From: Eledone cirrhosa
Lineage: Eukaryota
NCBI GenBank assembly: GCA_964016885.1
Contig: OZ024742.1
Location: forward strand, 183,458,001 to 183,522,000
DNA: 64,000 nucleotides
Reading direction: 5' to 3'
The notes under the pieces were generated by a model, which worked only from the letters and a program-made list of their open reading frames with translations, had not been told where the DNA came from and searched no databases. Within the stretch, counting starts at the first letter, position 1; the number at the start of each line of letters is the position of its first letter. Shown here piece after piece: positions 10,312-48,500 of this stretch. The position numbers and the translations under genes were made by a program.

Positions 10312-10390
10312 AATATATATTGCCACGAAAAAAACCCATAAAAAGTATCGCAAAAGATATTTACAATTCTGCGAATATGTGGTGGAAAAT

Positions 10391-14480: not shown

Positions 14481-14483
<3 letters not shown>

Positions 14484-14903
14484 AAAGTTCTATTTAAATT
14501 GTTGGGATACAACAAGCAAATATTTTTATAACTGATATAAAGCACTCAACAAATATTTGGAGTAAAAATACGATATTAACAAATAGAAACTATATTTATA
14601 AAACCATATTTATTTCATTATACATATTTCAAGGACACCAAGTTAAATTATGGTGTGCTTTCATCATATAAAATATAATATAGATCAGTTTTATAAATAA
14701 ATATTGACATACCCTTAAAAAATGCAACCATTACTGTTGGAAGCTCCCGGATAGTTTTAAGGGTATGTCAATATTTATTTATAAAACTGATCTATATTAT
14801 ATTTTATATGATGAAAGCACACCATAATTTAACTTGGTGTCCTTGAAATATGTATAATGAAATAAATATGATTTTATAAATATAGTTTCCATCTGTTAAT
14901 ATC

Positions 14904-14907
<4 letters not shown>
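14481..14907. mobile_element. Hammerhead-bearing repeat family A; long palindrome (arms 14568-14720 and 14755-14907), core mutated to ATGATGA
   Basis: ~153-bp near-perfect inverted arms with a 34-nt loop, flanked by (TA)n on both sides; homologous to 27173-27750, 31065-31240 and 32161-32340. Confidence 0.8.
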
Positions 14908-16926: not shown

Positions 16927-18008
<1,082 letters not shown>

Positions 18009-19604
18009 GTCGGCACCTTACTGGAGGAGTACGAAAAGTTCACAGGGGCTAAGCTGAACCGGGACAAGTCGATCGGTTTGCAACTCGGCACGTGGAGGGG
18101 CAGACCGATGCCCTCCGATGGCGTCGTCGGACGCTGGACGGAGGGCCCGGTGAAGTTGCTCGGGGTCTGGTTCGGACCGGACCTCCAGGTGGAGAAAAAC
18201 TGGGCGGAGGTTACGAACAGAGTGTTTGCACTGACCCAGAAGTGGGCCAGTTGCAAACTATCCCTGAAAGGTCGGGCGGAGGCGGCGAACACTTATATAG
18301 CGTCCGTCATCTACTACCGCCTGACCGTAGTGCCCTGCCCAAAGGAAACCCTCACCAAGATGGAGCGCGCGCTCTTCCAATTCCTTTGGAAGAGGCGGGC
18401 TCCTATGGTGAGGAGATCCATCTGCTGTCAACACCCTTCGAAAGGAGGGCTGGGGATGCCGTGGCTAATGATGCGTAAACACGCATTAAGGCTACGGCAC
18501 CTCTACGTATTCCTCACCGGACAACCGGTGTGGGCCTCGTTTGTGAGACGAACCTTTCCCAGACTCGTCTCACTCACCGAGCTGCAATCCTGGGTCAAGC
18601 AAAGACCGAGAAAACTGGGCGCCTGGCACACTGAGTGTGCCCAGGCGCTCACCGCCCTCTGGCAGGCGGATCCGGTTATCAGTGGAGACTCCACCGCAAC
18701 ATTCTATAGAGGGCTGGTACGCAGCAGGTGCGACGACGCCCTCGGAGAAGCCCTAGACATGGAGGAGGACGAACTGGCCAGCCTGTTCGGTAGGACATTC
18801 AGCCCGGGACCTATGGACAACTTCCAGAAGTCCCTGGCCTGGCAGTGCTACCGAGGGGCTTTACCCGTTCGAGAAAGGCTCTACAGACACGGGTGCCCGG
18901 GTAGGGACCCCGCCAAAAAGATCTGTCCCAGATGCGTGTGCGACGAGGAAACCGTTGCACACGCATTGGTACACTGCTCGGGCGTAGCCGATCTGTGGGG
19001 CTATGTCGAACAACTGCTGTCAAGGGTGGGACCGATCCGGTTGACCACCGAGTCTATTGTAATGATCAAGCCGCCTCCCCCCTTCAAAGATGAAGCAGAG
19101 GCGGTGTTTCTGTGCGTAATAGCCATGGCGAAAGAGGTTGTATGGTGGACGCGTCTGAAAGGACTGAGGTCAGGCACCTTTCTCTCTGGCCAACAACTGG
19201 TCCGTTTCTTCCGATATCATTTCGGAAGAAGGATCAGGATAGAGAGAGAGGTGCTGCACCCCAGTCGTTTTTATGAAAGGTGGGTGAAAGTGGCGAGAAT
19301 GGCCCGTGTGAATGGGCCTTCTCTTTACATAAGCCTGTAGGTGGAAAAGAGGAAGGAACGAGGGAGCACCCCCTCTCTGTGCTCCTGAGGAAAAGGGTTG
19401 CACACTTTTTTCGGGGGTGTGTGCGACCCCCCAAGGCGCCTCCTCTCTATTGAGGATTTTGTTAAAAATTTTATTTTTTGTTATATCTTATTTTATTTTT
19501 ATATTTTGTTATTGCCTCCTCCTTATTGAGGACGCCTTTTTGTGTAAACTCCCCCCTTTGTACTTGTCCCACTTTTGATGCCCTAGTGGCAAATAAAAGA
19601 AACA

Positions 19605-19646
<42 letters not shown>
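18009..19646 (+). mobile_element. L1/Tx1-type LINE copy 2 (5'-truncated) with (TCTA)n tail
   Basis: Open frame to 19340 (KLSLKGRAE, GGLG, CCHC knuckle); same 3' UTR; tail ~19604-19646. Confidence 0.9.
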
Positions 19647-22195
19647 AGGTTCTAGCTGCGGATAGGAATAGGAAGGAAAGGGAGCTAATAGATAGAGTAG
19701 AAGAGGCAATTAGAAGCGGCGACGTGGCCAGAGTGCTAGCGTCGAGAACGGCTTTGAGCCAGTTTTTCGACGCGAAGCACGATGGCTGCGTTGTCCGAAG
19801 TAAAATACGTGCTCTAGGGAACGAGGGGACCAAAGCTGTTAGCTGGGCCCGCGTGACAGAGGCCAACAGTGGAACTAAATCCACCATCCGGTCTTTGCGA
19901 GACCTGGATGGACGGGCGATTCTTGAGCCTAAGCAGATGTGTGAGGCCTTTCAAAGGCACTTTGCCCGACTGTTCGGGAGGGGCGGGGAGCCGGTTGGGA
20001 ACGTGGACTTCGGTCCATACCTCGACGGCCTGCCGCGCCTCTCGGACAGGGAGGCGAAGTCCTGCGAGGAGCCGATTTCGGCCGCTGAGATAGAGGACGT
20101 GCTGAGCCAATGCGGCAAACGCAAATCCCCGGGTCTCGATGGTCTTCCTTACGAATTATATCTAGCTATGCCGGACTTGTTCCCCGATCTCCTCGAGGCG
20201 GTCTACTGCAACTGGCAACAGAACGGGAGAATTCCCTGTACTGTGACCAAGGGCGTAATCACGCTAGTGAGGAAGGACGAGAACAAGGGGGACGAAATAA
20301 GTAACTTCAGGCCCATAACACTGCTAAATACAGAGTTACAGATTTTGGCCAAGGTGCTAGCAAAGAGGTTGGCGCTTGTCGTGGGCAACCTGGTGGGAGA
20401 TGCGCAGACATGCGCTATCCCGTCCAGGTCCATCCATGACAACCTCCACCTCATGCGATACATCATAGAGAGGGTTGGGAACGAACCCGGCTTTGGTGGG
20501 GCTCTGATCAACTTGGATCAATCTAAGGCGTTCGATAGGGTCGACCATGGTTACCTGGATGCGGTGCTAGCGGCGGCAGGCTTCGGACCCGTTTTCAGGG
20601 GATGGATCACTGCTATGCACAGCAGCCGCATCTGCTCTAGGGTCAAGGTGAACGGCTACCTCTCGGAGCCGTTCAAAATCGCGCGGTCCATCCGACAAGG
20701 GTGCCCTCTCTCCTCCCTTCTGTATGTGTTGACTCTCGAGCCACTACTGCGGAAGTTGGAGTTGTTGCAGGGCATCCCTTTGGAACCGGGATTGCGGAAA
20801 GCGGTGTCGGCCTACGCCGATGACGTGACAGTAACGGTGTCGACGGCCTCCGAAATCGAGGCGGTCGGCACCTTACTGGAGGAGTACGAAAAGTTCACAG
20901 GGGCTAAGCTGAACCGGGACAAGTCGATCGGTTTGCAACTCGGCACGTGGAGGGGCAGACCGATGCCCTCCGATAGCGTTGTCGGACGCTGGACGGAGGG
21001 CCCGGTGAAGTTGCTCGGGGTCTGGTTCGGACCGGACCTCCAGGTGGAGAAAAACTGGGCGGAGGTTACGAACAGGGTGTTTGCACTGACCCAGAAGTGG
21101 GCCAGTTGCAAACTATCCCTGAAAGGTCGGGCGGAGGTGGCGAACACCTACATAGCGTCCGTCATCTACTACCGCCTGACCGTAGTGCCCTGCCCAAGGG
21201 AAACCCTCACCAAGATGGAGCGCGCGCTCTTCCAATTCCTTTGGAAGAGGCGGGCTCCTATGGTGAGGAGATCCATCTGCTGTCAACACCCTTCGAAAGG
21301 AGGGCTGGGGATGCCGTGGCTAATGATGCGTAAACACGCATTAAGGCTACGGCACCTCTACGTATTCCTCACCGGACAACCGGTGTGGGCCTCGTTTGTG
21401 AGACGAACCTTTCCCAGACTCGTCTCACTCACCGAGCTGCAATCCTGGGTCAAGCAAAGACCGAGAAAACTGGGCGCCTGGCACACTGAGTGTGCCCAGG
21501 CGCTCACCGCCCTCTGGCAGGCGGATCCGGTTATCAGTGGAGACTCCACCGCAACATTCTATAGAGGGCTGGTACGCAGCAGGTGCGACGACGCCCTCGG
21601 AGAAGCCCTAGACATGGAGGAGGACGAACTGGCCAGCCTGTTCGGTAGGACATTCAGCCCGGGACCTATGGACAACTTCCAGAAGTCCCTGGCCTGGCAG
21701 TGCTACCGAGGGGCTTTACCCGTTCGAGAAAGGCTCTACAGACACGGGCGCCCGGGTAGGGACCCCGCCAAAAAGATCTGTCCCAGATGCGTGTGCGACG
21801 AGGAAACCGTTGCACACGCATTAGTACACTGCTCGGGCGTAGCCGATCTGTGGGGCTATGTCGAACAACTGCTGTCAAGGGTGGGACCGATCCGGTTGAC
21901 CACCGAGTCTATTGTAATGATCAAGCCGCCTCCCCCCTTCAAAGATGAAGCAGAGGCGGTGTTTCTGTGCGTAATAGCCATGGCGAAAGAGGTTGCATGG
22001 TGGACGCGTCTGAAAGGACTGAGGTCGGGCACCTTTCTCTCTGGCCAACAACTGGTCCGTTTCTTCCGATATCATTTCGGAAGAAGGATCAGGATGGAGA
22101 GAGAGGTGCTGCACCCCAGCCGTTTCTATGAAAGATGGGTGAAAGTGGCGAGAATGGCCCGTGTGAATGGGCCTTCACTCTACATCAGACTATAG
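19647..22195 (+). CDS. LINE ORF2 reverse transcriptase + zinc knuckle (N-terminally truncated, uninterrupted frame of ~850 codons)
   Basis: KSPGLDG, FRPITLLN, LDQSKAFDRVDH, IRQGCPLS, YADD, GGLG, CPRC...H...C. The predicted start at 19478 lies in the UTR of copy 2 and is not the native start. Confidence 0.88.
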
Positions 22196-22460
22196 GTGAG
22201 GAAGATGAAAGACCAAGGGAGCACCCCTTCTCTGTGCTCCTGAGGAGAAGGGTTGCACACTTTTGTTCGGGGGTGTGTGCGACCCCCCAAGGCGCCTCCT
22301 CTCTATTGAGGATTTTGTTAAAAATTTTATTTTTTGTTATATCTTATTTTATTTTTATATTTTGTTATTGCCTTCTCCTTATTGAGGACGCCTTTTTGTG
22401 TAAACTCCCCCCTTTGTACTTGTCCCACTTTTGATGCCCTAGTGGCAAATAAAAGAAATA

Positions 22461-22514
<54 letters not shown>
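19647..22514 (+). mobile_element. L1/Tx1-type LINE copy 3 (5'-truncated, lacks the APE endonuclease) with (TCTA)n tail
   Basis: Complete RT domain, 3' UTR and tail ~22459-22514. Confidence 0.92.
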
Positions 22515-26560: not shown

Positions 26561-27172
26561 GTTTAACTTCAATTTGTGTATTTAACATATATATGTATAT
26601 TGTAAATGATGTATGACAAATGGCAATATCACTTATCTACAATTGCGACTTACTTACGAATATATTCAGTAATTGCTATGTAGATGTAACATAGTTGAAT
26701 GGATTGTATGTTATTGTCGTTTGCCTGATCAAGATCAGATGTCAGTGATCAATTTCCAGGGACAACCTTGTGTAGATTAGCAACTTACTTAAATTTGCTG
26801 CTGAGGTAAGGACACACTTGCAGATTTTATGTTATTTTATTTTTATTTTATATCGCACTAAAAAGGTTGGTAGTTAAACAGGTTTCCATTAGTTCACTTT
26901 ATTTTCTAGACCTCATACACAATAAGGCTACTCATCTGAGTGGCATAAAGTTATTTTAACTTTACTAGCCTTCCGACACAGATGGTATGGATGCTATTAC
27001 TGTTCGGTTTAAATTGTTGCACATTGATACCCGCAGGAAAGATATGTAAGAAAATAACAGAGGCCGACATATTCTCCCTCCTTTCGCTATCTTTTCTGAT
27101 GGGATAGAACTGACATCTTGCCACAAACACTCAGACAAACCCGCCTCATCGTTTCCTACTCTTATCCTACTC

Positions 27173-27752
27173 TTAATAAATAGAAACTATATTTATAAAA
27201 CCATATTTATTTTATTATATATATTTCAAGGGTACCAACAATTTTGGTACGCTCTCATCAGATAAAATACAAAATCTGTTTTATAAATGGTGACATACCG
27301 AAGAAACCAGACCTTATCGGTTCAGGTGAGCACTCGATGTTTAGGTTCACATCTGTAGCGAGGTGTAGAGCTAAACAGAGTGTAAATATAATAATACAAG
27401 GACGATTTGTTAAGCCTTCATTACGTGTATTGATTAATGACGCGCGTTTTGCATTACAACAGCAGAGGTCCGACGAGTTTTTGATTCCAGAGTCGGGCCA
27501 GATCGATATAGATCGAACCTTGAGCTAATCAATAGCGAAACGCGCGTCACCAATCAATAAACGTATGATAGCGTACCAAAATTTTGGTACCCTTGAAATA
27601 TATATAATAGAATAAATATGGTTTTATAAATATAGTTTCCATTTATTTAATATCATTGTATATTATACTCCAGAAAACTTGTCGAGTGCTCTGAATCAGT
27701 TATAAACATTTATATTTGTTGAATTACCAACAAATTGAATATCCCTTCTGCT
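27173..27752. mobile_element. Hammerhead-bearing repeat family A in inverted configuration with a nested inner inverted repeat
   Basis: Outer arms ~27173-27258 and 27565-27651; inner arms ~27423-27450 and 27534-27564; ends at a (TA)n run. Confidence 0.75.
27208..27269 (-). ncRNA. Minimal type I hammerhead ribozyme motif (family A, intact core)
   Basis: Minus strand: TATTTTAT-CTGATGA-GAGCGTACCAA/aattg/TTGGTACCCTT-GAAA-TATATA-TA-ATAAAATA. Perfect 8-bp stem I, 10/11-paired stem II, palindromic minimal stem III, AUA cleavage triplet. Confidence 0.8.
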
Positions 27753-27758
27753 TATATA

Positions 27759-27844
<86 letters not shown>

Positions 27845-27846
<2 letters not shown>

Positions 27847-27887
27847 CGAGCTGAGGATCCGCTAAGGTGAAACAATTGTTCTCAGTA
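27845..27887 (+). ncRNA. Minimal type I hammerhead-like motif (different family)
   Basis: TACGAG-CTGAGGA-tCCgctaaGGt-GAAA-CAATTG-TT-CTCaGTA; palindromic stem III, weak stem II; in a ~70-bp island between (TA)n runs. Confidence 0.6.
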
Positions 27888-27934
27888 TGGCGAACTAACT
27901 GTTGTGTAACCACTTATATATATATATATATATA

Positions 27935-29800
27935 TAAAAACAGGGAGAAAGAGACGATTATGAGGAAGAAAAAAATATTTTTTTCATTTTTTTTGTGTGT
28001 CTCTTTTTTCTGGGTTAGAAAATGATTAAAACGAAATGTTTTACTTTGTGTGAAGTGTTAAGGTATTAGTTGATTTATTTTTTATTTAACAATGGCATTT
28101 ATTTATCTATTTATATATTTAATTATTGTCTATTACCGGTTTCTGCATTTATATGCATTATCAAATGATAGTGAAAGTGTCGGACATGTTAAACAGAAGG
28201 TGCAGAAAAAATAATGTTATATACAAACAAGGTTTAAGAAGTGAAAAGAAAAAAAGAAAAAGGAAAAAAAACGTGCATAATGTGGAACGTAAAAAGTCAA
28301 TGTGGAAGAAAAGTTAATGTTATTTACAAGCACAGTCATTGAAGTTAAGCAGTTCAAAATGTGTTAATGTCGCAAGAATGTTTAGTTGAACCATGGTTCC
28401 GTGAAGGAGGCAAATGGTGGATTGTGGTTTGATATGATTTTCCTTTTTAGAGAGTTAATATGCAGGGAGAAGCAATTCTTGCTGGGTGATATTTAATTTA
28501 TTTAAGAAAAAGGATTAGGTAGGGTGTGAGGGAAGTAACTCTTGTAAATGTTTGATGGTTTGTTGCAGTTTTAGAAAGATCCGAATTTTAGGGCATTGAG
28601 TACTGGTTGAAATTTATTAATGAAATGTGTTTCCTTATTGGTACGTTGGATGAAAGTAGCGTTGTCTATGAATTTGTAAATGGGGAAAATTTTAAAGTTT
28701 GGAAGTTGGTTAAGAGCACAGTTGGCGATATGTTCACTAAATGCAATCTTTCTGTATTCCTGTATTTTAATTTGCGATTTATGGATGGTCATACGTTGAC
28801 GGAGGCTGTTTTTTGCCTGTCCTATATAGTGCTCTTGACAACCTGAGCAAGTCAAAACATAGATAAGGTTTTCAGATGCACATGTAAAGTTGTGTTTAAC
28901 TGTGAAACGTTGTCCTTGTTTAAAATGGAATGTTGAACCTTCTATTAGATTTATGCATATGCCACAGTTGGGCCTTCCGCATTTTGTTACTGTAGGGTTT
29001 ATTGTGAGGGTTTGATGGATTTTGGCTTGTGTGAGGATGATTTTTATAGATTTGGGTTGTCTTTTGCTCTTTATGATGTTGTGTGTTTGGAGGATATTGT
29101 TCATTCTTGGGTCTCTTTTTAGTAAAGGAATGTTCTGGAGGATGGTGTCGAATGTCTCATTGTTGAGGGGGTTGTGTGTGGAGATGTATGGTAGAGTTTT
29201 TTGTTGCGGTTCACTCCTGGGTTTGGGGTGTCTGAGTTCCTGGATGTCTAGTTTTAGGGCACGTTGGAATCCATTGGTGATTAGGGATGGTGGGTAGTTT
29301 CTGCTGATAAGTGTGTTTTTTAATTCTTCTAGTCGTGTGTAGCATGTGTATTTATCTGAAACTATTGTGCAGATCCTTCTGGCTAGGTTATAAGGAATTG
29401 CCATTTTGGTGTGTCTAGGGTGGCACGAGTTGAATGGAAGGTATTGTTTGGAGTCTGTGGGTTTGTAGTATATGTCTGTTTCTATTTTGTTGCTTGTTTT
29501 CTTGATGAGGATGTCGAGGAAAGGGAGTTCTTCATGGCTGTAAGCCATTGTGAATTGTAAGTTAGTGTTGAGTCCATTCAGAAGGGTTTTAAACTCAATC
29601 AGTCTATCTATACTTTCATGCCAGAGGATGAAGCAGTCGTCCAGATATCTCTTCCAGTTATTTTCTATGTGTTGGTAGAAGTGGTTGCCGTATTTATCTA
29701 GAACTTTGCGGTAGAGAATGGTTTCCAAATATCCCATGACAAGGTTGTCGTATGAGGGCGGCGCCACTTTCGTGCCCATGGCAGTCCCAGATTTCTGGTT
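27935..29800 (-). mobile_element. Penelope-like element (Neptune-type), 5'-truncated
   Basis: RT C-half plus Cys-rich linker plus GIY-YIG ORF, followed by ~630 nt of downstream sequence ending at (TA)n. Confidence 0.85.
28571..29779 (-). CDS. Penelope-like RT (partial) + GIY-YIG endonuclease, 402 aa open frame
   Basis: GTAMGTKVAP, WKRYLDDCF, LPFLDILI, TDIYYKPTD..YL..SCHP.H, CGRPNCGIC, NLIYVLTC..C..HYIGQ..LRQRM.IH. Confidence 0.85.
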   Translation of the reverse strand: MGTKVAPPSYDNLVMGYLETILYRKVLDKYGNHFYQHIENNWKRYLDDCFILWHESIDRLIEFKTLLNGLNTNLQFTMAYSHEELPFLDILIKKTSNKIETDIYYKPTDSKQYLPFNSCHPRHTKMAIPYNLARRICTIVSDKYTCYTRLEELKNTLISRNYPPSLITNGFQRALKLDIQELRHPKPRSEPQQKTLPYISTHNPLNNETFDTILQNIPLLKRDPRMNNILQTHNIIKSKRQPKSIKIILTQAKIHQTLTINPTVTKCGRPNCGICINLIEGSTFHFKQGQRFTVKHNFTCASENLIYVLTCSGCQEHYIGQAKNSLRQRMTIHKSQIKIQEYRKIAFSEHIANCALNQLPNFKIFPIYKFIDNATFIQRTNKETHFINKFQPVLNALKFGSF

Positions 29801-30757
29801 TATATACGCAATGAAACTTTACATAATATACATATGCATTTTTATAACATACACAATTACATAATATCATAAATGTTTATATTAATATACATATGTGCAT
29901 TTAAGTATATATAAAGGTTCAGACAAACTAAGATATGTGGGTGTATGTGTTCGAATATATATGTGTATACGTATGTACATATATAAATATATGCATATAT
30001 ATATATGTATAGTTATGTACATATATAAACCAGATAGAAAAATGCGTACAGCAAAAAAAAGTAATATTGTTGGAATATAAACCTTTAAAAATACAGGACA
30101 AGAAACTAAGATAAAACTTTAAAGAATTGGACAAGAAATAAAAAATGTTACAATAATATTAGTGGCAACATTTTTATTGGTAAAAAATCGAGTTCCACAT
30201 TCAGAGGTCGTCGTCAGACCGGGGGGGGGGGGATCATTTGATCCTGGTTTGAACACCAATTGGGCCATAACCATACCCCTATTTCATCATTCGGCGACAC
30301 GCCTCATGTGTCATGCATAATGTGAATGGACCCATGGGCCCATGAGCACAGATCTTGAGCAGCAGCGGACGGTCTTGTCGTCCCGCTCATCCTTGATCTT
30401 GACCAACCCGTCCATCTTCTCCTTGCATCTTGTCCTTGAGTTCAAGTCCGGCAGTCCAGATGAATGCGTGCCACAGCTTTCTGGTACAGGAAGGGGGAGC
30501 AGGAGGACTGGAGGGATGACGGGACAGAGGGAGGGAGGACCGGTGGTCGAGGGAGGTGCCGTAGTCGGTGGTCAGAGTCGACATCTTGTCCCGGTCGTCT
30601 TCTCCATCTTCATAAATATGTACATACATATACACATATGCATATATATATATATGTATATTTATGTACATATGCATATATATGTGTGTTTATATAAATA
30701 TCATATTTATATATATTTTTATTAGTGTATAATACATACATATATATATTAATACAT

Positions 30758-30796
<39 letters not shown>

Positions 30797-31064
30797 CATT
30801 GTTTATACACACGCATATATATATTATATATATATACACATGTATGTATATATATATATTGTACACACACATATATATACATACATTCATATATGTTTGT
30901 GTATGTGCATGTGAATATGTACGTGTGTTACTGAAACGTTATTAGTTTTGCCATTTTATTTGATATCTGTTGTAAAAAAAAATATTCAAAGCCAAACAGC
31001 AAGTGAAGTCTTCAGCAAAGTTCCTCTCGAATGTCCATATTATGACGTATATACATATATATAC

Positions 31065-31240
31065 AATGATATTAAATAAATGGAAACTATATTTATAAAA
31101 CCATATATATTGATACCCTTGAAATATATATATTTCAAGGGTACCAATACTTTGGTACGCTATCAGCAGATAAAATACAAAGTTTGTTTTATAAATTTTG
31201 ACATAACCAAGAAAAATACCTTAACGGTTCAAGTTTTCCT
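31065..31240 (-). mobile_element. Hammerhead repeat family A, rearranged copy (core CTGCTGA)
   Basis: Homologous to 27173-27320; contains a perfect 30-bp palindrome at 31114-31143. Confidence 0.7.
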
Positions 31241-31368
31241 TGGAATATGTGTGTGTGTGTGTGTGTGTGTGTAGATGTTTATTGAAAGAGAAGGTATAGT
31301 CCGTCCCTTCGGGGCTATATCCACACTCGCTCCTCTCTCTTTATATATATCTATATATACGCCCACAC

Positions 31369-31440
<72 letters not shown>

Positions 31441-31443
<3 letters not shown>

Positions 31444-32095
31444 AATGAATATATGATAGGGATAAACACTGATACAAGTATACATGTGTTTGCATTGCAA
31501 ATGACCAAGTTAGCTAGATTTGTATTACACGGCTCAGAAATATTCCTTTCTTTGAGCTATTTAATTGTAAAAGACTATTTGAGTTTATAACTCTATATAT
31601 AGTATTCTCGGCTCCATACGTGAGCTAATTTTTAGTCCCATAAAACCGGCTGCTATTTTTAGAGGCACGAGTATGAGACAAGCTAAGCGCTGTAACACAT
31701 GTGCGTTCAACAACACATTTCTCTCAGTCTTCTTAAGTATTTTGAAGTGAAACTTACCAATTTCTGGATACCTCCAGAAGAGCACAGGAATAGGAACTTT
31801 CACTTAATTGTTGCGAAACAAATTAAAAATATAAAATTTAAAATTTGTCCAGGTATCACGGCTATTGCCAATATAGGTTTGTTTTTATTGATTTATTATT
31901 TTAAATCGAGACAGGCAAACCGTATTATTTTAATTAGTATTTTTCAATCTAGCTAACTTGGTCATTTGCAACGAGAACACATGCATACTTGTATCAGTGT
32001 TTATCCCTAACATATATTCATTTGTATTACACGGCTCGGAAATATTCCTTTCTTTGAGCTAATTAATTATAAAAGACTATTTGAGTTTATAACTC

Positions 32096-32100
<5 letters not shown>
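31441..32100. mobile_element. Unclassified 660-bp element with combined inverted and direct terminal repeats, between (TA)n runs
   Basis: 31441-31520 is the inverse of 31946-32025; 31518-31600 directly repeats 32020-32100. Confidence 0.65.
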
Positions 32101-32163
<63 letters not shown>

Positions 32164-32202
32164 GATATTAATAAATGGAAACTATATTTATAAAACCATA
32201 TT

Positions 32203-32267
32203 TATTTCATTATACATATTTCAGGGATACCAAATTAAATTATGGTATGCCTTCATCAGACAAAATA
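32203..32267 (-). ncRNA. Minimal type I hammerhead ribozyme motif (family A, intact core) within repeat 32161-32340
   Basis: Minus strand: TATTTTGT-CTGATGA-AGGCATACCA/taatttaatt/TGGTATCCCT-GAAA-TATGTA-TA-ATGAAATA. Stem I has two G.U pairs; stem II differs from the 27208 copy while keeping pairing. Confidence 0.75.
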
Positions 32268-32469
32268 CAATATATAACAGTTTTACAAATAAGCTTTGAC
32301 GTACCCTTTTAAAATGCAACCATTATTTTTGGAAGCCATCTTATATATATATATATATATATATCTGGCCCTTAAAGCGATGAAATGCCTGGGACGGTTG
32401 GAGGGTCACTGATGAAGGACTTACTTTTTCATATGTATCCCATTTGCAACGCGCAGCTTCATTATTATC

Positions 32470-33543: not shown

Positions 33544-35669
33544 AATGATAAAGTCACAAGGCCAGCAATTTAGAAGTGGAGGAAGTTGATTTACATGGAC
33601 CACAGTATTCAACTGGTACTATATTTTATCATCCCCGGAAAGGTGTAATGCAAAAAAAGTTGATCTTGACTGGATTTGAACTCAGAACCTTTTTCGTTCG
33701 ACACTCTAGCGAGTCTCAAGGCCAGCAATTTTGTCCGATGCAACATAAGAATGCTGGTGGCATGGATATTATTACTAAAAAGCGTCACAACTGTTTGAAA
33801 TATTGTGGGCGGTTGCTGTAATTAATTAAACTCTCACTATATATATATCTTCGTACTTACTGACTTGGGTGATTGATTGCGTACTTACATAGTTATTTAG
33901 CTATTCAAATATTAGTAGAAGAGGCGTGTATAGAAGAAACATATAACATGATTATGCATAATTAAACATACGTAGTCTCGCTCTGAGTATTTTTATCTGT
34001 TATTTATATTACAGTTACCTCACTAACTGTGAAAATAACGAATACATGCATTTCATGAACCGTCATCAACGACGCTTACTCACGCAGTGGAACACTCAGC
34101 CACTTGCATGTTAATATCACGGGTTGATCCGCCAAAGTGCTGGTCTTGTGTCTAAATTAGAAATTATAAAATGGCGATGAATTTTGAGCAGCGGGTACTA
34201 TGGCTTCCAGCGTTTATTTACGTTCCTTTACGTTGAGTTCAAATCCAGCTGCGGTCAACTTTGCCTTTCATGTTTTCGGGGTTGATAAAATAAAGTAGCT
34301 GTAAAGTACTGGTTTTGATCTAACGGATTTTCCCCTACAAATAAATTGCTGGCCTTGTGTCTAAATTGGAAACGAAGTGTATACGAAAAATTTATATCTG
34401 CATATATACAGATATAAATTCATCCAAGACTGTGTAAATGTGTATATGTCTATATACACATGGAGCATCTAGACATATAAACATGTTCAATTTCCGTATT
34501 TCCGTGTAAATTAAAATTAAATAAAATTATATATATTATATATGCCCCAGCATGGCCCCAGCCGGGTGGCTGGAACAGGTAAAAGAGTAAAGAGTTTAAT
34601 CGATTTTTGAATCGTATCGGCTTCTTCTCATCAGAAGATATCTATTTATTATTTTATGGCTATATCACATCTTTCCATTATTCATTAAATCGAGTAAAGA
34701 AGGTGTTGTAGAATTTGGGGTCAGTGTGACATTTTTGGTTGCAGAATCGGTAGAAATTTTCTGAGGGATTGCAACAAGAACGTTTGTGCCGTAATTTCCT
34801 TTGACTATATAAATAGTCTGAGAGAATACTATCGTTAAAACTACGTAACGTGTCACAGCATCGCCGTCTTATCTATATATCTAAAACAGAGAATGTCTGT
34901 CTGTCTGTCAGCTCACTAAAACTCGAGAACAACCCAATCGATTGTTTTCAAACTTTACACATGTAATATTTATGGTATGTGAGTGTTTTGAGGAAAATTT
35001 TTTTTCCAATTTTCAATGCCTTAAGGACCGCATTAGGTGATTTAGCGATCTATCTTTATAATTCTTAGTCTTTTCTTTTAGATAGATACATAGATATAAC
35101 GTTGCACCCTTATAATATCTGTCTGCATTACGACATTATGACGCGGTGTGTGTGTGTATATATATATAGTGTGTAACGTTTTTTGAAATATTTACTTCTG
35201 CGTTCACAGATTTATTTTTTTAGTTTCAGAAGATCTCGTTAAAGCAGTGATTCTTTGCTTAAACTTTAATCTGTTATTTTAATATATATATATATATATA
35301 TAATATAAGTTAAAACAATGAAATAAAAAATCAAGTCCTTAGAGATATACTTCACTGCTTTACGATCGTTTCTAGATGGTGATAATACATTGTATCTATA
35401 CTCAGTTATTGATCTATGTAAGTTTACAAACTATCAGATAGAGAGAATATTTACTTACATGCATATCACCAGCTGTTTTCAAAAGCAATAATAATTTTAC
35501 TCAGAATTAGTATCATGTCCATATTTGGAGGTAGTTGAAGAACTAACGAATCAAATTGCTTTTTTCATATGGTGTTAAGATGAAAAGTAATACACTTTAG
35601 TTGAGGTCATGACCCTTTGAAAGGAATGGTTGAAAGGTGTTAGTAGAAATGGCAAATTAGAAAATTTGT

Positions 35670-37632
35670 AACGCATCCACTATGGGATAACACTTCCCAA
35701 GTTATCGAATGGTTTACTAGAATTGAGAATAAAAATTCAGCTTCATTCATTCAATTCGACATCGATTCCTACTATTCTTCGATTTCTCCAATTCTTTTAA
35801 ACAAAGCACTGATCTTTGCCAGAAATAGATCGGATTTATCTACTGAGGAAATCAACATCATAACTCACGCTAGAAAAACCTTACTAAACTTCCAAGATGA
35901 ATATTGGACAAGAAACACGTATAACAACTTATTCGATATTACGATGGGATCCATGGACTCTACTCAAGTTACAGACCTCGTTGAACTATTTCTCCTCTAT
36001 AACATTAATGACTCTTTTCCCCACCTCAAAGGTGGTCTTTATCGGGATGATTGTCTATTGTTATCTAACAATCTTAGCAATTCCAATATAAAAGCAAATT
36101 AGAAAATTTCTCAAGGACTATTACAGCCTTAACATCACTTTTGAAAACACTTCAAAAGTAGCTAATTTCCTTGATGTTACCTTAGATCTCTCTACGAATA
36201 CTTATCAACCATACCACAAACCTAACCAGAATCTACATTATGTACATTCACGATCTAACCACCCAGGCTCTATACTCAAGAACTTAGTATATAACATTTC
36301 TCTTAGACTTTCTAAATTATCTTCCAATGAAGATATATTTTATAATAATGCACCTTTCTACAACGAGGCCTTAACTAGAAGTGGATATAAAGAAAAAATC
36401 TCATATATCCCCAACACTACTGTGGACCAAAACATAAAACCTAACAAAAACTACAAACACCAAAAAATACCATTGAAACAAATACCTAAAGTGGTTATTC
36501 CTATTACACCAAACAACCGAAAAACCACAACAACTATTACTACACGATCTATGACCAATGTTATCAACCCACATATGAATACAAAGCACTCAAAATCTCA
36601 TAATCTACCCCAAAATAACACCAAATACAACCACGATGATTTACCAAATTCCACAAATAAGGACACTAACCATAGGAACTCTTCTAGAACACAACACAAT
36701 AATATGAGGGATAATAAAAACTTAACTAAAAACCGCAAAAGAAACATAACATGGTACAACGCACCCTTCAACCTGCAAACTATTGGACAAATCCCCCCAA
36801 AATTCTTTGAAATACTACATAAACATTTTCCACCAAACCACAGATACCACCAAATATTTAACAAATATACTGTTAAATTCTCATACTCTACATCAAGCAA
36901 TCTCAAACAAAAAATAAGCAACTACAACATTTATAAACTTTAAAATAATATGACTACACCACCGCAACATAATTTAAATAGGACTGCACCTTTTAAAAAG
37001 ACAAATAATACAATCCTTCAACCTAGAAAACACAACCACCCAAATCACCAACACAAAAACAACAGAACACAAAATCACAATACAACCCTAGCACCAAACC
37101 ACCCACAAAGCAACCTTCATTCTCCTGCTATCATTAATTACAATAGGAATAGCTCAAGGATTAATGAGAATAGTATAGGCACCCCAACAACCATCTTACG
37201 TATGGCTATAATTGCAGAAATAGAAGCATTTGCCCCTTAAATGGCAACTGTTTGATTAATAATGTAATATATAAATGCACTGTGTCTACTACAGACTCCA
37301 ACAAAACATATATAGGATCTACATCAAACACATTTAAGAAAAGATTTTACACACACTCTAGTAGTTTCAACAATACTAAACTAGCTAACACCACATCTTT
37401 AGCTGAAGCGGTAAATAATTATAAAAAGAAAAAAATAGATTTTAAGTTATCGTGGAACACCATTCTACAAAAAATTCCATATCTTGGAAACAGGAGGGAA
37501 TGCAGATTATGTTCAGGAGAGATCTTGGAAATTACTAAATCTAAGGACGATTTATTAAATAAAAGGCAGGAACTGATCATAGTTTGTAATCACTGTGTAC
37601 GAAGAACATTTAAATACTATAAACCTAATTAA
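35670..37632 (+). pseudogene. Frameshifted Penelope-like RT-GIY-YIG ORF
   Basis: FIQFDIDSYYSSI, FDITMGS, GGLYRDD, NFLDVTLDL, YHKPN..YVH..SNHP, ITWYNAPF, CPLNGNCLINNVIYKC..TYIGST..FKKRF..H, CRLC..E; several stops and frameshifts. Confidence 0.85.
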
Positions 37633-37849
37633 ATACTATAAACCTAATTAAATATTCTAAATAGCAACTCACTATAATTCGGTATAGAATAACATTTATT
37701 AGTACCTCTTTCCCCTAATTATATGCTTTCATGCTTATTTTTGCCTTTTAATATTTTAACTTCCTTAGGTTTATGCGTTAATGACTAAAGGCAACAAGAT
37801 ACACAACCACCCGTAATAGCATGAGTAAAAATAAACATCTATATATGAT

Positions 37850-37882
37850 ATGGAAATATATTTATGTGTGTATATATTTGTG

Positions 37883-37930
<48 letters not shown>

Positions 37931-38112
37931 TATGTATGTGTATATGTGTATATATGTATATGGTTGTATATGTATCTGTATGTGTGTATGTGTATGTATA
38001 TGTATGTGTATGTGTATGTATGTGTATATATGTGTATATATATATATGGGTGTGTATATATATGTATATATATATATATGTATGTGTGTGTATGTGTATA
38101 TATATATATATG

Positions 38113-38191
<79 letters not shown>

Positions 38192-38494
38192 ATATGTGAG
38201 TATAGGTGTATGAATGTTTATATATGAGTATGTGCACATGTAAGAGGAGTGTACATATACTCACACAAGTGTGTATATATATATGTGTGTGTACGTGTGT
38301 GTGTGTGTGTTGTATATGTATATATATATATGTATATATATATGTATATATATATATGTGTATATATATATATATGTATATATATATATGTATATATATG
38401 TATATATATATGTATATATGTGTATATGTGTATGTATGTATGTATGTATGTGTATGTGTATATGTATGTACATGTATGTATGTATGAGTGTGTG

Positions 38495-38525
<31 letters not shown>

Positions 38526-38690
38526 GTATGTGTATGTGTATATGTATATATGGGTGTATATGTATATATGGGGGTATAGATGTGTATGTGTGGATACAGA
38601 TATGTATGGATATGTATATATATGATTATATGCATGCGTGTGGATGTGTATTTAGGTTTGCATCTATTTGCACATATGTATATTTTGGTT
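37850..38690. repeat. Complex (TA)/(TG) microsatellite tract inside the Penelope element
   Basis: Directly visible. Confidence 0.9.
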
Positions 38691-39598
38691 AGATATCAAT
38701 ATAACTGCACCTCTCTCTATATGTAGTGTGAATATGTGCACTTTGTAGACTATGAAATTTATGTGTTTTAACTATGCCAACATGTACTTATCTGAGTTTG
38801 ATTGTTTATGCATAAACATACTTAGCAATATTTTAGAGCGTATAATATATAATATGTTATATTATACTGAGTGCAATTTACCACACCGTACTATTATATT
38901 CTGTTGGTTAAGTTGTATATTATCGCATCACTATATCTCATTATCTCATTATAATTTTCACCTTTTAATATATTATCTTTCCTAGCCATAACATTAATTT
39001 ATATTCACCTTAAAACTCAATACAACACTAATCACCATTTATTTTGACATTTCTTTTTAATTCACTATACAAGATACATTCAACTATCAGTTTGACAATC
39101 CCCTTCCTTCCTAATAGATTTTTATGCCATTTCTACTAACACCTTTCAACCATTCCTTTCAAAGGGTCATGACCTCAACTAAAGTGTATTACTTTTCATC
39201 TTAACACCATATGAAAAAAACAATTCGCCAGTTCTTCAACTACCTCCAAATATGGACATGATACTAATTCTGAGTAAAATTATTATTGCTTTTGAAAACA
39301 GCTGGTGATATGCATGTAAGTAAATATTCTCTCTATCTGATAGTTTGTAAACTTACATAGATCAATAACTGAGTATAGATACAATGTATTATCAACACCT
39401 AGAAAGGATCGTAAAACAGTGAAGTATATCTCTAAGGACTTGATTTTTATTTCATTGTTTTAACTTATATCATGACTCTGTTTTCCTTTTAATGTTTTAT
39501 TGTTTTCTGAGATTTATCTTAACCTACAACATTTTCAACATATGGATTACATTGAGTTCTTCATACAGAATAGACCCCACAACTTACAGTGGATACCT

Positions 39599-40197: not shown

Positions 40198-40569
40198 TCT
40201 ATAAATAAAATACCAGTCAATTACTGGGTCGAATTTCTCCCTCTGATTCTTTCTCACTCTCTCACATCAATTATTCTCTTTTTATCTTCCTATATCAACC
40301 TTCCTCACTTTCTCTCATTTTCAACCCTCCCATTCTTCATCTAACAACCCTCACTTTCCCCTTTGGACGAACATCGGCGGTGTTCAGACCGGGAGAGAGA
40401 TGTGTTTCGTCGGGTATAAAATGGCCAAGACACGCTGCCGTATGTCGTCACTACGACTAACGGAAGATAAATGACACAAGGAAGGAGGGAAATAACGAAG
40501 TTATGAACAGTTATAAATCTATATCTGAAAACAAGAGAAAAAATGTATATCTACTATTATTAGCAGAAT

Positions 40570-41185
40570 CATGGTGTCCGGCGCTCTACCGATTCTGCCA
40601 ATAATTGTTTCTACGTTAGGCACAAGGCCAGCTATTTACCCAGTGCATTACTGGTACTTTATTTTATCGACCCCGTAAGGATGAAAGGCAAAGTTAACCT
40701 CAAATCCCGCCAAGGTTAACTTTGCCTTTCATCCTTACGGGGTCGATAAAATAAAGTACCAGTAATGCACTGTGTAATTGCTGGCCTTGTGCCTAACGTA
40801 GAAACAATTATTGGCAGAATCAGTAGAGCGCCGGACACCATGCTTCGCCGCATAGAGTGACGGTCCCTTACGTTCTGAGCTCAAATCCTGCCGAGGTTAT
40901 CTTTGTCTTTCATCCTTACAGGGTCGTTAAATAAAACACCAGTAATGCACTGGGGTCGATTTAATCGACTTTCCCCTCCTCCCAAATTGTTGGCCTTGAG
41001 CCTAAATCAGAAACCATTTGGCAGTATCGGTAGAGCGTCGGACGCCATGCTTTGCAGCGTAGAGTTACGGCCCTTTATGATGAGTTCAAATCCCGCCTTT
41101 CATTCTTACGGGGTCGATGAAATAAAGTACCAGTAATACATTGGGGTTTATTGCTGGCCTTGTGCCTATATAAGAAACCATTATT
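40570..41185. mobile_element. SINE cluster: foldback palindrome 40570-40842 plus head-to-tail SINE multimer
   Basis: ~130-bp arms around the loop CAAATCCCGCCA; further tandem plus-strand copies to ~41185. Confidence 0.85.
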
Positions 41186-41638
41186 ATTATTATATAAAAT
41201 TTGAAACATAACCTAGAAGATGACTGAAATAAAAATAAATAAATAAAAATACAAATAAAAAAAAGAAAGGAAACCAGAAGGAAAGAAAGGAAGAAGGAAC
41301 GAATAGAGTTAGTCTTATTGTTGTGAGAGGTTTTGTTGAGTGGAGATCATGCGATCACAATTGAAACGAAATAATACAAGAGAACAATAGGAAGGAAGGG
41401 GAAAGGGGAGAAAGGAAAGAAAAAAATGGCAAAAAAACATACAAATAATATTCATAAAAAAACCCCTTCATTAGGGGTCAGAGGCGTGTCAGGCTGAGAG
41501 AATGGTTTTTGAATATCAATGAGTTATTTAAAAACACGCTAAAAAACGAGGAAACTGAAGATTAAAAATATAGGAAATCTGCTTCTCAAACTCTCCCTCC
41601 CCTCTCTCTCTCCTTCTCTCACTCTCCCCTCTCTCTTT

Positions 41639-41907: not shown

Positions 41908-42187
41908 ATATATATCACAGTTAACGTTTGTCTGTGCAGAGGCTTTTATGTTCAATTTGTCAGTAAAAGATACGATAACAGAGTTTAAAAAAAAAAAAGA
42001 AATACGCTGAAGCTCCTAAATGTTCATTAAATACATATCCGTTCAACGTTTCTAATAATAGATCATATACACACACATACACACACACACACACAGACCA
42101 TATATATATGTGTGTGTGAGGGTGTGTATATGCGTTCAGTAAAAAAAAAAAAACATTTTCAAACATCTGTAACACCTTATGATTGTT

Positions 42188-42545
42188 GCTACTATTGGTA
42201 CAAGGCCAGCAATTATCTCAGTAGATTACTGGTACTTTATTTTATCGACCCCGTAAGGATGAAAGGCAAAGTTAATGTCGGCGGGATTTGAACTCACACC
42301 ATAAAGGGGCGCAACTCGATGTTGCAAAGCATGGCGTCCGACCTTCTACTGATACTGCCAATCCCCCACCCTTATTAGTAATAATGGTTTCTTATATAGG
42401 CACAAGGCCAGCAATTTTGGGGAGGGAAAATCGATTAAATCGACCCCTGTGCGTGACTGGTACTTTATGTTAGCGATTAAAGGCAAAATTAACCTCGGCA
42501 GGATTTGAACACAGATCATAAAGGGCCGATACTGCCAATCCGCTA
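42188..42545 (-). mobile_element. Two tandem SINE copies
   Basis: Reverse complement of the SINE core and B-box, seen twice. Confidence 0.75.
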
Positions 42546-44924: not shown

Positions 44925-45560
44925 ATATTAATATATTTAGTATATTCAAAATAGGACTAATTTCAGCTGTTTATTTAGGAATTATATTCTAAATTCTATA
45001 AAGCACAATATATTTTATATTTAATATATTCTAAACAAGACTAATTCCAGCTGTTTATTCTGAAAATATATTCTAAACACTGTATGTACAATGTATTTCA
45101 TATATTCCATATGTTTTAAACAGGACTAATCTCTGTTATTTTTTCTGGAAATATATTCTGAATACTATATAGTACGAGGTACTGTATAGAAATATATTTT
45201 GATAACTAATTTAGAGAAAAGGCCTGCAAATTTGGGAGAAGAGCAAAGTTGTTTAAATCAACCATAATGGTTAGATATGATAGATACCGTGTAGTACCAT
45301 ATATACAACAGCACAAGGTACTCTATAGTACCCTGTATTCTGAACAGTATTAGGTATTTTATAATACTACATATTCGAAATAGAACTAGGTACTCTAGAA
45401 TACCATATATTCTGAATAGAATTAGGTAATATCTAGTACTATATATTTTGAAAAAAACTTCGTAATTTATAAAATAAAGTACCTTGTATTCCGAACAGGA
45501 CTACGAGCATTATAGTACCATGTGTTCCAAGAGAACTAAGTGTTTTATAGTACCATACAT
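44925..45560. repeat. Degenerate edge of the 36-bp satellite
   Basis: Recurrent ATATATTCT(A/G)AA(C/T)AG(A/G)ACTA motifs that become more consensus-like toward 45560. Confidence 0.7.
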
Positions 45561-48500
45561 CCCTAACAGAACTAGGTACATTAGAGGACCATATATTCTA
45601 GACAGAACAAGGTACATTACAGTACCATATATTTTAAACAGAACTAGGTACATTACAGTGCCATATATTCTACACAGAACTAGGTACATTACAGTGCCAT
45701 ATATTCTACACAGAACTAGGTACATTACAGTACCATATATTCCAGAGAGAAGTAGGTACATTAGAGTACCATATATTCTAAACAGAACTAGGTACATTAG
45801 AGTACCATATATTCTAAACAGAACTAGGTACATTAGAGTACCATATATTCTAGAGAGAACTAGGTACATTACAGTACCATATATTCTAAACAGAACTAGG
45901 TACATTACAGTACCATATATTCTAAACAGAACTAGGTACATTACAGTAGCATATATTGTAAACAGAACAAGGTACATTACAGTACCATATATTCTAAACA
46001 GAACTAGGTACATTACAGTACCATATATTGTAAACAGAACTAGGTACATTACAGTACCATATATTCTAAACAGAACTAGGTACATTACAGTACTATATAT
46101 TCAAGACAGAACAAGGTACATTACAGTACCATATATTCTAAACAGAACAAGGTACATTACAGTACCATATATTCTAAACAGAACTAGGTACATTACAGTA
46201 CCATATATTCTAGACAGAACTAGGTACATTACAGTACCATATATTCTAGACAGAACTAGGTACATTACAGTACCATATATTCTAGACAGAACTAGGTACA
46301 TTAGAGTACCATATATTCTAGACAGACCTAGGTACATTACAGTACCATATATTATAGACAGAACTAGGTACATTACAGTACCATATATTCTAGACAGAAC
46401 AAGGTACATTACAGTACTATATATTCTAGACAGAACTAGCTACATTACAATACCATATATTCTAGACAGAACAAGGTACATTACAGTACCATATATTCTA
46501 AACAGAACAAGGTACATTACAGTACCATATATTCTAAACAGAACTAGGTACATTACAGTACCATATATTCTAAACAGAAAAAGGTATATTACAGTACCAT
46601 ATATTCTAAACAGAACTAGGTACATTACAGTACCATATATTCTAGACAGAACAAGGTACATTACAGTACCATATATTCCAGAGAGAAGTAGGTACATTAG
46701 AGTACCATATATTCTAAACAGAACTAGGTACATTAGAGTACCATATATTCTAAACAGAACTAGGTACATTAGAGTACCATATATTCTAGAGAGAACTAGG
46801 TACATTACAGTACCATATATTCTAAACAGAACTAGGTACATTACAGTGCCATATATTCTACACAGAACTAGGTACATGACAGTGCCATATATTCTACACA
46901 GAACTAGGTACATTACAGTACCATATATTCCAGAGAGAAGTAGGTACATTAGAGTACCATATATTCTAAACAGAACTAGGTACATTAGAGTACCATATAT
47001 TCTAAACAGAACTAGGTACATTAGAGTACCATATATTCTAGAGAGAACTAGGTACATTACAGTACCATATATTCTAAACAGAACTAGGTACATTACAGTA
47101 CCATATATTCTAAACAGAACTAGGTACATTACAGTACCATATATTGTAAACAGAACAAGGTACATTACAGTACCATATATTCTAAACAGAACTAGGTACA
47201 TTACAGTACCATATATTGTAAACAGAACTAGGTACATTACAGTACCATATATTCTAAACAGAACTAGGTACATTACAGTACTATATATTCTAGACAGAAC
47301 AAGGTACATTACAGTACCATATATTCTAAACAGAACAAGGTACATTACAGTACCATATATTCTAAACAGAACTAGGTACATTACAGTACCATATATTCTA
47401 GACAGAACTAGGTACATTACAGTACCATATATTCTAGACAGAACTAGGTACATTACAGTACCATATATTCTAGACAGAACTAGGTACATTAGAGTACCAT
47501 ATATTCTAGACAGACCTAGGTACATTACAGTACCATATATTATAGACAGAACTAGGTACATTACAGTACCATATATTCTAGACAGAACAAGGTACATTAC
47601 AGTACCATATATTCTAGACAGAACTAGCTACATTACAATACCATATATTCTAGACAGAACAAGGTACATTACAGTACCATATATTCTAAACAGAACAAGG
47701 TACATTACAGTACCATATATTCTAAACAGAACTAGGTACATTACAGTACCATATATTCTAAACAGAAAAAGGTATATTACAGTACCATATATTCTAAACA
47801 GAACTAGGTACATTACAGTACCATATATTCTAGACAGAACAAGGTACATTACAGTACCATATATTCTAGACAGAACTAGGTACATTACAGAACCATATAT
47901 TCTAGACAGAACTAGGTATATTACAGTACCATATATTCTAGACAGAACTAGGTACATTACAGTACCATAAATTATAGACAGAAGTAGGTACATTACAGTA
48001 CCATATATTCTAGACAGAACTAGGTATATTACAGTACCATATATTCTAAACAGAACTAGGCACATTACAGTACCATATATTCTAAACAGAACTAGGTACA
48101 TTACAGTACCATATATTCTAAACAGAACTAGGTACATTACAGTACCATATATTCTAAACAGAACTAGGTACATTAGAGTACCATATATTCTAGACAGAAC
48201 TAGGTACATTACAGTACCATATATTATAGACAGAACTAGGTACAATAGAGTACCATATAGTCTAAACAGAAATAGGTACATTACAGTACCTTATATTGTA
48301 AACAGAACTAGGTACATTACAGTACCATATATTGTAAACAGAACTAGGTACATTACAGTACCATATATTCTAAACAGAACTAGGTATATTACAGTACGAT
48401 ATATTCTAAACAGAACTAGGTACATTACAGTACCATATATTCCAGAGAGAAGTAGCTACATTAGAGCACCATATATTCTAAACAGAATTAGGTACATTAG

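What the first reader, a model, noticed from the sequence alone, without database searches (positions are those of the whole stretch)
27208..32340. Dispersed non-coding repeat family carrying a minimal hammerhead ribozyme (retrozyme/Penelope pLTR-like), supported by covariation
Seen: four loci (14481-14907, 27173-27752, 31065-31240, 32161-32340) share a ~200-300 bp AT-rich unit. Its minus strand reads stem I-CUGAUGA-stem II-GAAA-UAU(A/G)UA-UA-stem I'. Two copies (27208-27269, 32203-32267) have an intact core. Stem II differs between copies (GAGCGTACCA/TGGTACCCTT, AGGCATACCA/TGGTATCCCT, AAGCACACCA/TGGTGTCCTT) yet stays paired, with a conserved C.C mismatch, i.e. compensatory change. Every copy abuts or lies near (TA)n. 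Established: minimal type I hammerheads with a palindromic stem III occur in Penelope pseudo-LTRs and metazoan non-LTR retrozymes and cleave as dimers. Inference: this is a non-autonomous, ribozyme-processed retroelement family, possibly undescribed in this lineage, mobilised by Penelope RT and targeting (TA)n; its stem III palindrome is itself (UA)n.
Basis: partly seen in the sequence, partly recalled or inferred. Interest (0 to 1): 0.82.

Follow-up and report, generated by a model that had tools for sequence, protein, structure and literature searches.

The report
Penelope retroelement stubs carrying hammerhead ribozymes
The repeat is real and very abundant, and two of its six copies here keep a complete hammerhead self-cutting RNA motif (cutting untested); it is most likely the short tail end of a Penelope-like jumping gene, a kind already described in animals, and no copy could be tied to its parent gene.

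Summary
The window holds six copies, not four. Two loci are head-to-head inverted pairs, each with one long and one short 3' end, and 4 of 6 3' ends abut (TA)n. Two copies have an intact type I hammerhead (minus strand 27208-27269, 32203-32267). Three stem II pairs change on both sides across 5 distinct sequences. Public runs show a very high-copy family, also present under two other organism labels. This architecture matches published Penelope-like element (PLE) insertions: minimal hammerheads, opposite-strand pairs, a tail at one end, (TA)n targeting. It is not a retrozyme as defined: there is no head-to-tail array, and inserts span the cut site uncut. A Neptune-like and a Hydra-like PLE remnant lie nearby, but neither shares sequence with the unit, so the parent is unidentified. 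New here: the 27 kb locus also carries a second, different hammerhead (plus strand 27467-27551), 223 nt upstream of the first on the RNA strand. It is probably a chimera of two PLE ends. Cleavage and expression are untested. Verdict: new member of a known kind.

The parts
27208..27269 (-). Hammerhead A, intact copy (core 27261-27255, GAAA 27227-27224, predicted cut after 27216)
32203..32267 (-). Hammerhead A, intact copy (core from 32259, predicted cut after 32211)
32161..32341 (-). Single copy of unit A with short 3' end, (TA)n on both sides
27173..27451 (-). Left arm of inverted pair: 3' half of hammerhead B (GAAA changed to AAAA), hairpin, unit A with short 3' end
27452..27752 (+). Right arm: whole hammerhead B, a deletion between two ATGA microhomologies that removes the hairpin and the start of core A, then unit A with long 3' end abutting (TA)46
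   Evidence: loose ends at 27565
27467..27551 (+).
   Evidence: descriptor; Rfam RF00163 14.8 bits, E 2.2, gathering 34; the common read letters at 27478 and 27527 improve two stem II pairs
27325..27385 (.). Hairpin that likely marks the 3' end of family B; contigs of three organisms end their match at 27322-27333
   Evidence: z -5.2 plus, -3.1 minus; table 8
14481..14750 (-). Left arm of inverted pair: unit A with core C3 to A, long 3' end abutting (TA)n
14755..14907 (+). Right arm: unit A with the same C3 to A change, short 3' end abutting (TA)n; arms 97% complementary over 158 nt
31065..31240 (-). Single copy of unit A: core A6 to C, stem I' replaced by a 17-nt foldback centred on the TA palindrome; 5' end beside a (CA)n run
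28571..29818 (-). Context, not shown to be the parent: 5'-truncated Neptune-like PLE ORF (RT 3' half, Cys linker, GIY-YIG), 415 codons

Best explanation
These repeats are likely the 5'-truncated 3' ends (pseudo-LTR stubs) of a (TA)n-targeting Penelope-like retroelement, and two of six copies keep a complete hammerhead motif that is predicted, not shown, to self-cleave. Inferred mechanism: the element's GIY-YIG nuclease nicks (TA)n and its reverse transcriptase primes there on uncut RNA, starting at one of two sites about 50 or about 140 nt past the hammerhead. It stops early, and often a second, inverted copy is laid down head to head, giving one long and one short end. The hammerhead would fold actively only as a dimer through its palindromic stem III, or with protein help, and would trim precursor transcripts rather than define the inserted unit. 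The 27 kb locus is most likely a chimera in which the end of a second PLE family (hammerhead B) was joined in front of unit A before the inverted pair formed. Shown: sequence, structure, paired changes, abundance, ends. Inferred: parent class, priming, dimer cleavage, chimera history.
For: Intact core and stems in 2 of 6 copies, above chance. Three two-sided stem II changes. Reads add two more stem II variants that keep most pairs and extend the stem by two, one of them also under organism B (loose ends at 27228 and 27585). None of the 40 best-supported variant rows shown falls in the core or GAAA; 114 rows were hidden. Both inverted pairs are head to head with one long and one short end (138/51 and 146/43 nt after the cut), as Craig 2021 draws for PLEs. 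4 of 6 3' ends lie at (TA)n, the stated target of Hydra and a bias attributed to Neptune. In 131 loci encoding relatives of the neighbouring ORF, 18 loci gave 21 hammerheads (0.4 expected by shuffle); 19 of 21 are on the ORF strand and 13 of 21 lie within 750 nt after the ORF match. Published Hydra hammerheads sit about 90-430 nt from the consensus end in sense orientation in most rows. Cervera 2014 describes single and opposite-strand paired minimal hammerheads as truncated PLEs. Frangieh 2024 reports that uncut RNA is the insertion substrate and that two start sites make the tail.
Against: No copy is linked to an ORF: there is no similarity between the unit and either PLE remnant's flanks, and no match of the model in 100 of the 131 PLE loci. 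The five measurable 5' ends cluster 53-83 nt before the core, which fits a short defined element as well as truncation. The extra 3' stretch is about 90 nt, not the 30-40 nt published tail. The motif departs from the published PLE consensus: first stem II pair G.U or A-U instead of G-C, no extra base after A9, stem I of 8 bp. The hammerhead fold is 5 kcal/mol above the minimum fold, and the stem III dimer is weak (-2.2 to -3.2 kcal/mol). No target-site duplication can be read inside (TA)n.
Confidence: 0.68

Rival explanations
1. Unit A is an independent non-autonomous mini-element (about 180-270 bp, its own fixed 5' end) derived from a PLE end and copied in trans by PLE proteins.
For: Five 5' ends lie within 30 nt of each other. 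There are at least two upstream subfamilies. Depth falls more than tenfold 25-60 nt upstream of the core. No ORF link was found.
Against: Only copies long enough to hold the hammerhead were recognised, which biases the 5' ends. The depth fall also reflects subfamily divergence under the 80% cut-off. At 27 kb the unit continues upstream into family B. Depth is higher still at the 3'-most bins, as truncation predicts, although these bins are AT-rich and may attract unrelated reads.
Confidence: 0.24
2. Non-LTR retrozyme: tandem units are transcribed, cut by consecutive hammerheads, circularised and re-inserted as dispersed monomers.
For: The unit size (180-270 bp), low GC and type I motif fit the published range. 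Monomers of retrozyme families are described as dispersed.
Against: There is no head-to-tail array of the unit in the window, and none of the joints shown joins the 3' end to the 5' start (15 shown, 55 hidden). Paired copies are inverted, with fixed 3' ends rather than circular permutations.
Confidence: 0.05
3. A DNA foldback or MITE-like repeat whose hairpin is kept by DNA-level repair, the hammerhead look being incidental.
For: The inverted arms resemble terminal inverted repeats. A DNA foldback did occur in the 31.1 kb copy. There is no Rfam hit.
Against: Single-arm, polar copies exist (31.1 and 32.2 kb). Arm junctions differ between loci and contigs. All consensus core bases and three helices occur in the right order, with 0 of 100 shuffles matching. 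None of 19 chance core-pattern matches in viral contigs forms a stem I of 2 bp or more.
Confidence: 0.03

Closest known systems
Minimal hammerheads in pseudo-LTRs of animal Penelope-like elements (Cervera and de la Pena 2014, PMC4209133; parts 1-2 of 4 read, plus passages of one supplement)
   Same: Type I core, long helix II, tiny palindromic helix III, thousands of dispersed single copies, pairs on opposite strands 100-700 bp apart, families with compensatory changes.
   Different: No G10.1-C11.1 pair, no extra base after A9, helix I of 8 bp rather than 4-5, helix II of 10-12 bp with a fixed C.C mismatch, 6-nt palindrome, AUA triplet; parent ORF not found.
Neptune and Hydra clade PLE insertions (Craig et al. 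2021, PMC8557442; passages, section 11, supplement tables S1/S2 in part)
   Same: Inverted 5'-truncated copy joined head to head, extension at one end only, (TA)n targets, sense-strand hammerhead near the 3' end.
   Different: The extension is about 90 nt rather than 30-40. No hammerhead in the S2 table I read has this stem II or palindrome, and Hydra-1_oBim has a different one. Short-motif searches of that supplement showed no match in the passages displayed.
Animal non-LTR retrozymes (Cervera and de la Pena 2020, PMC7229834, passages; Li et al. 2026, 10.64898/2026.07.22.740005, parts 1-3 of 5)
   Same: Short, AT-rich, non-coding, type I hammerhead, likely PLE-derived.
   Different: Defined by head-to-tail repeats with a hammerhead in consecutive units and circular RNA; neither is seen here.
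PAc Poseidon element of Anolis (Frangieh et al. 2024, PMC11167929; parts 1-2 of 4)
   Same: Two 3' ends; inserts span the hammerhead uncut; AT-rich targets.
   Different: In PAc the hammerhead overlaps the ORF start. No conserved reading frame starts in or after hammerhead A.

Membership tests
Type I hammerhead ribozyme | Core C3-U4-G5-A6-N7-G8-A9, G12-A13-A14-A15, U16-H17 (as listed in PMC3088659) | tested here: met
   Complete in 2 of 6 copies; C3A in 2, A6C in 1, deleted in 1
Type I hammerhead ribozyme | Three helices with no mispair next to the core | tested here: met
   Intact copies: G.U or A-U at 10.1-11.1, A-U at 15.1-16.1, U-A at stem I; U.U at 10.1-11.1 in two damaged copies
Type I hammerhead ribozyme | Compensatory change in helices | tested here: met
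   3 of 9 stem II pairs two-sided, 5 distinct sequences; few independent events
Type I hammerhead ribozyme | Site-specific self-cleavage | not testable with these tools
   Needs in vitro assay
Rfam RF00163 Hammerhead_1 | Score at or above gathering (34 bits) | tested here: not met
   No hit for A; 14.8 bits for B
PLE minimal hammerhead consensus (Cervera 2014) | Palindromic 15.2-16.2 and loop 3; helix II longer than canonical | tested here: met
   UAUAUA / UAUGUA; 9-10 pairs
PLE minimal hammerhead consensus (Cervera 2014) | G10.1-C11.1 pair and an unpaired base between 9 and 10.1 | tested here: not met
   G.U or A-U, no bulge. Works like the class, but is a variant of its consensus
PLE 3' end / pseudo-LTR | Sense hammerhead within a few hundred nt of the 3' end | tested here: met
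   43-146 nt
PLE 3' end / pseudo-LTR | Inverted 5'-truncated copy joined head to head; tail at one end | tested here: met
   Both pairs; tail about 90 nt rather than 30-40
PLE 3' end / pseudo-LTR | Flanks an RT plus GIY-YIG ORF in at least some copies | tested here: inconclusive
   No link in the window or in 100 PLE loci of other organisms; no whole genome held
Non-LTR retrozyme | Head-to-tail repeats with a hammerhead in two or more consecutive units | tested here: not met
   None in the window; genome-wide not tested
Non-LTR retrozyme | Linear and circular monomer RNAs | not testable with these tools
   Needs RNA reads or RT-PCR

The most novel reading that the evidence does not exclude
Units B and A form one mobile, protein-free element carrying two different hammerheads on the same RNA strand, 223 nt apart (a GUC type with a loop that can pair with its own core, then an AUA type). 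It is amplified by Penelope proteins into (TA)n and would cut out a defined ~220-nt RNA. Both arms of the 27 kb pair have the B-then-A order, so such a composite was copied at least once. Against it: neither arm holds both motifs intact, and B has its own boundary at 27322-27333 in contigs of three organisms.
Probability: 0.12. Interest if true: 0.62.

Novelty: new member of a known kind. Interest (0 to 1): 0.3.

Why it matters
As a PLE stub family it adds a very abundant hammerhead variant (long stem II, A-U or G.U first pair, AUA triplet) with natural compensatory changes. That makes it a ready test set for the open question of what PLE hammerheads do in vivo. It does not change the known picture. 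It would matter more if the two-hammerhead composite is a real family, or if unit A proves to be an independent SINE-like partner of PLEs.

Tried and rejected
Whole-genome search: no genome is held for this window. Rfam: nothing at gathering; E-value scans gave only repeat-driven miRNA matches and the weak RF00163 match to B. Family-specific DNA pattern: 0 matches in metagenome contigs; B pattern: 0 in viral contigs; loose core pattern: 19 viral matches, none with stem I of 2 bp or more. Single-protein search of prokaryote genomes: 36 pattern matches, 0 relatives; the alignment search then worked. Neighbouring Neptune-like ORF as parent: not supported, because its 630-nt 3' flank has no core within one mismatch and the nearest same-strand hammerhead A lies 1.3 kb away behind two TA runs and an inverted arm. 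Hydra-like element at 35.3-39.5 kb as parent: no similarity. An intron or start codon after hammerhead A: not conserved between the two long copies. Earlier-finding look-ups by place, sequence and two word sets were empty. Literature: seven full-text searches showed no paper describing this family. Repbase/Dfam are not available here, file 1 of the PMC4209133 supplement could not be searched, and bioRxiv supplements are closed, so a catalogued match cannot be excluded.
Full report
Observation. The window is AT-rich, microsatellite-rich DNA; no whole genome is held. A strict descriptor finds two complete hammerheads, on the minus strand at 27208-27269 and 32203-32267, and none of 100 shuffles gives a comparable hit. 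Each has an 8-bp stem I, the CUGAUGA core, a 10-position stem II with a C.C mismatch, GAAA, a UAUAUA or UAUGUA palindrome and an AUA triplet. The other four copies have C3 to A (two), A6 to C with a foldback (one), or a deletion into the core (one). On 5 distinct sequences, 97.4% of 78 cells pair and three stem II pairs change on both sides; slid registers pair 38-52%. That is real but rests on few events. The hammerhead fold is about 5 kcal/mol above the minimum fold and the stem III dimer is weak. Rfam does not recognise the motif.

Abundance and variation. I laid 4 of the 17 listed runs on 27165-27752 at 80% likeness. In X1 (organism A, possibly the window's source) 14,822 of 16.5 million contigs were laid, in X15 (organism A, another study) 31,419 of 12.5 million reads, and in organisms B and C 70 and 20 contigs, each with a piece across the whole hammerhead. 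These are not copy numbers, but the family is clearly very large and is shared across three organism labels. Loose ends show two further stem II variants that keep most pairs and add two. None of the 40 variant rows shown lies in the core or GAAA (114 rows hidden).

Ends and orientation. On the hammerhead strand, 3' ends fall in two classes: 43-51 nt and 138-146 nt after the predicted cut. The two long ends align to the same position. Each inverted pair is head to head with one long and one short end. 4 of 6 3' ends lie within 2 nt of a (TA)6+ run, against a 2.7% background; the other two are 207 and 580 nt from one. 5' ends lie 53-83 nt before the core in five copies. Every copy that can be measured spans the cut site, so the template was uncut there.

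A second hammerhead. The plus strand at 27467-27551 holds a different motif (B): 3-bp stem I, core with U4 to C, long stem II around a 34-nt loop, CGCGCG palindrome, GUC triplet (Rfam RF00163 14.8 bits, E 2.2). The letters most reads show at 27478 and 27527 turn a wobble and a mismatch of this stem into Watson-Crick pairs. In this copy the loop can pair with stem I and the core, and that fold wins by a wide margin (-23.7 against +1.3 kcal/mol). U4C lowers activity in vitro (PMC3088659, passage); whether most copies have U4 is not visible. Both arms run B then A. In the left arm B is cut to its 3' half and its triplet lies 223 nt before the A cut. In the right arm a deletion between two ATGA words removes the linker; contigs show the undeleted continuation at 27565. 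Contigs of three organisms stop matching at 27322-27333, depth dips about tenfold at 27305-27324 in X1, and B shows its own inverted junctions of varying length. I therefore read B as the 3' end of a second PLE family, and the locus as a chimera; this is inference.

Search for the parent. A 415-codon ORF at 29818-28571 has a GIY-YIG domain and 57-59% identity to full-length RT plus GIY-YIG proteins. It has the Cys linker that Craig 2021 gives for Neptune and Nematis; I call it Neptune-like from motifs, partly recalled, without a tree. In 131 loci encoding its relatives, 18 gave 21 hammerheads (0.4 by shuffle), 19 on the ORF strand and 13 within 750 nt after the match. None resembles A (0 hits in 100 of the 131 loci), although TA or TATA palindromes occur in 5 of 21. 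The window ORF's 3' flank has no core and no similarity to the unit. A second broken PLE at 35.3-39.5 kb has relatives with the RWK and DKT motifs of Hydra, but shares nothing with the unit either. The parent remains unidentified.

How it most likely works. By analogy with PAc, where uncut RNA is the substrate, two internal start sites make the tail, and the hammerhead cuts only with protein (PMC11167929), a PLE protein would nick (TA)n, prime on its RNA at one of two sites past the hammerhead, stop early, and often add an inverted partner. The short end coincides with an internal TA-like word, which could let the target prime there (inference). The hammerhead would work as a dimer or with protein, on precursor RNA. 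The paired changes say its shape was kept by selection while the subfamilies were active; they do not show cleavage.

Comparison and novelty. Cervera and de la Pena 2014 report thousands of single minimal hammerheads per genome, pairs on opposite strands 100-700 bp apart, and attribute them to truncated PLEs. Craig 2021 describes the inverted copy, the one-sided tail and (TA)n targeting. Retrozymes need head-to-tail units, which are absent here. Seven literature searches did not show this family, but repeat databases and some supplements were not available. What differs from the published consensus is the missing G-C first pair and bulge, the long helices, the 90-nt extension and the two-hammerhead chimera.

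Verdict. Real feature, new member of a known kind, interest 0.30. PLE stub 0.68, independent PLE-driven mini-element 0.24, retrozyme 0.05, incidental DNA hairpin 0.03.

Noticed in passing
window 27845-27914 (+): A 70-bp stub between two TA runs with a third hammerhead-like motif (CUGAGGA core, 2-bp stem II, CAAUUG palindrome, GUU triplet, 3-bp stem I). It is too weak for my descriptor and points towards the 3' flank of the Neptune-like ORF.
   Followed up: partly
window 31108-31149: Near-perfect foldback centred on the stem III TA palindrome of the 31.1 kb copy (z -6.7). The copied part starts right after the predicted cut site, but an ordinary DNA template switch at the palindrome gives the same result.
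   Followed up: partly
window 28571-29818 (-): 5'-truncated Neptune-like PLE ORF, open for 415 codons, with a 630-nt 3' flank ending at (TA)n and no recognisable hammerhead.
   Followed up: yes
window 35300-39473: Broken Hydra-like PLE (ORF pieces 35647-37632, +) with a 355-bp, 96% identical inverted copy of its 3' end at its 5' end, next to (TA)n; a CUGAGUA..GAAA half-match at 39270 may be a decayed hammerhead.
   Followed up: partly
window 16927-22514 (+): Three partial tandem copies of a non-LTR retrotransposon (909-aa frame with RVT_1 and zf-RVT), 94-98% alike, each ending in (TATC)n.
   Followed up: no
window 45293-64000: 36-bp satellite, about 519 copies, 93% matches, filling the last 18.7 kb.
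   Followed up: no
window 5128-5944, 10200-10982, 13260-13589, 33552-34373, 40567-41196, 42178-42528: Another dispersed family of 100-350 bp, often in inverted pairs and once as a 241-bp tandem dimer; no hammerhead found in it.
   Followed up: no
window 31439-32101: Two 82-bp segments are each repeated, one direct and one inverted, between TA runs; possibly another inverted stub pair.
   Followed up: no
window 27325-27385: The hairpin folds better on the strand opposite to hammerheads A and B of the left arm, and the common read letter at 27374 keeps a pair only on that strand; function unknown.
   Followed up: partly
L096-L150: 55 loci in prokaryote genome records encode PLE-type RT relatives, several with PLE hammerheads; probably host DNA in symbiont and metagenome bins.
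   Followed up: no
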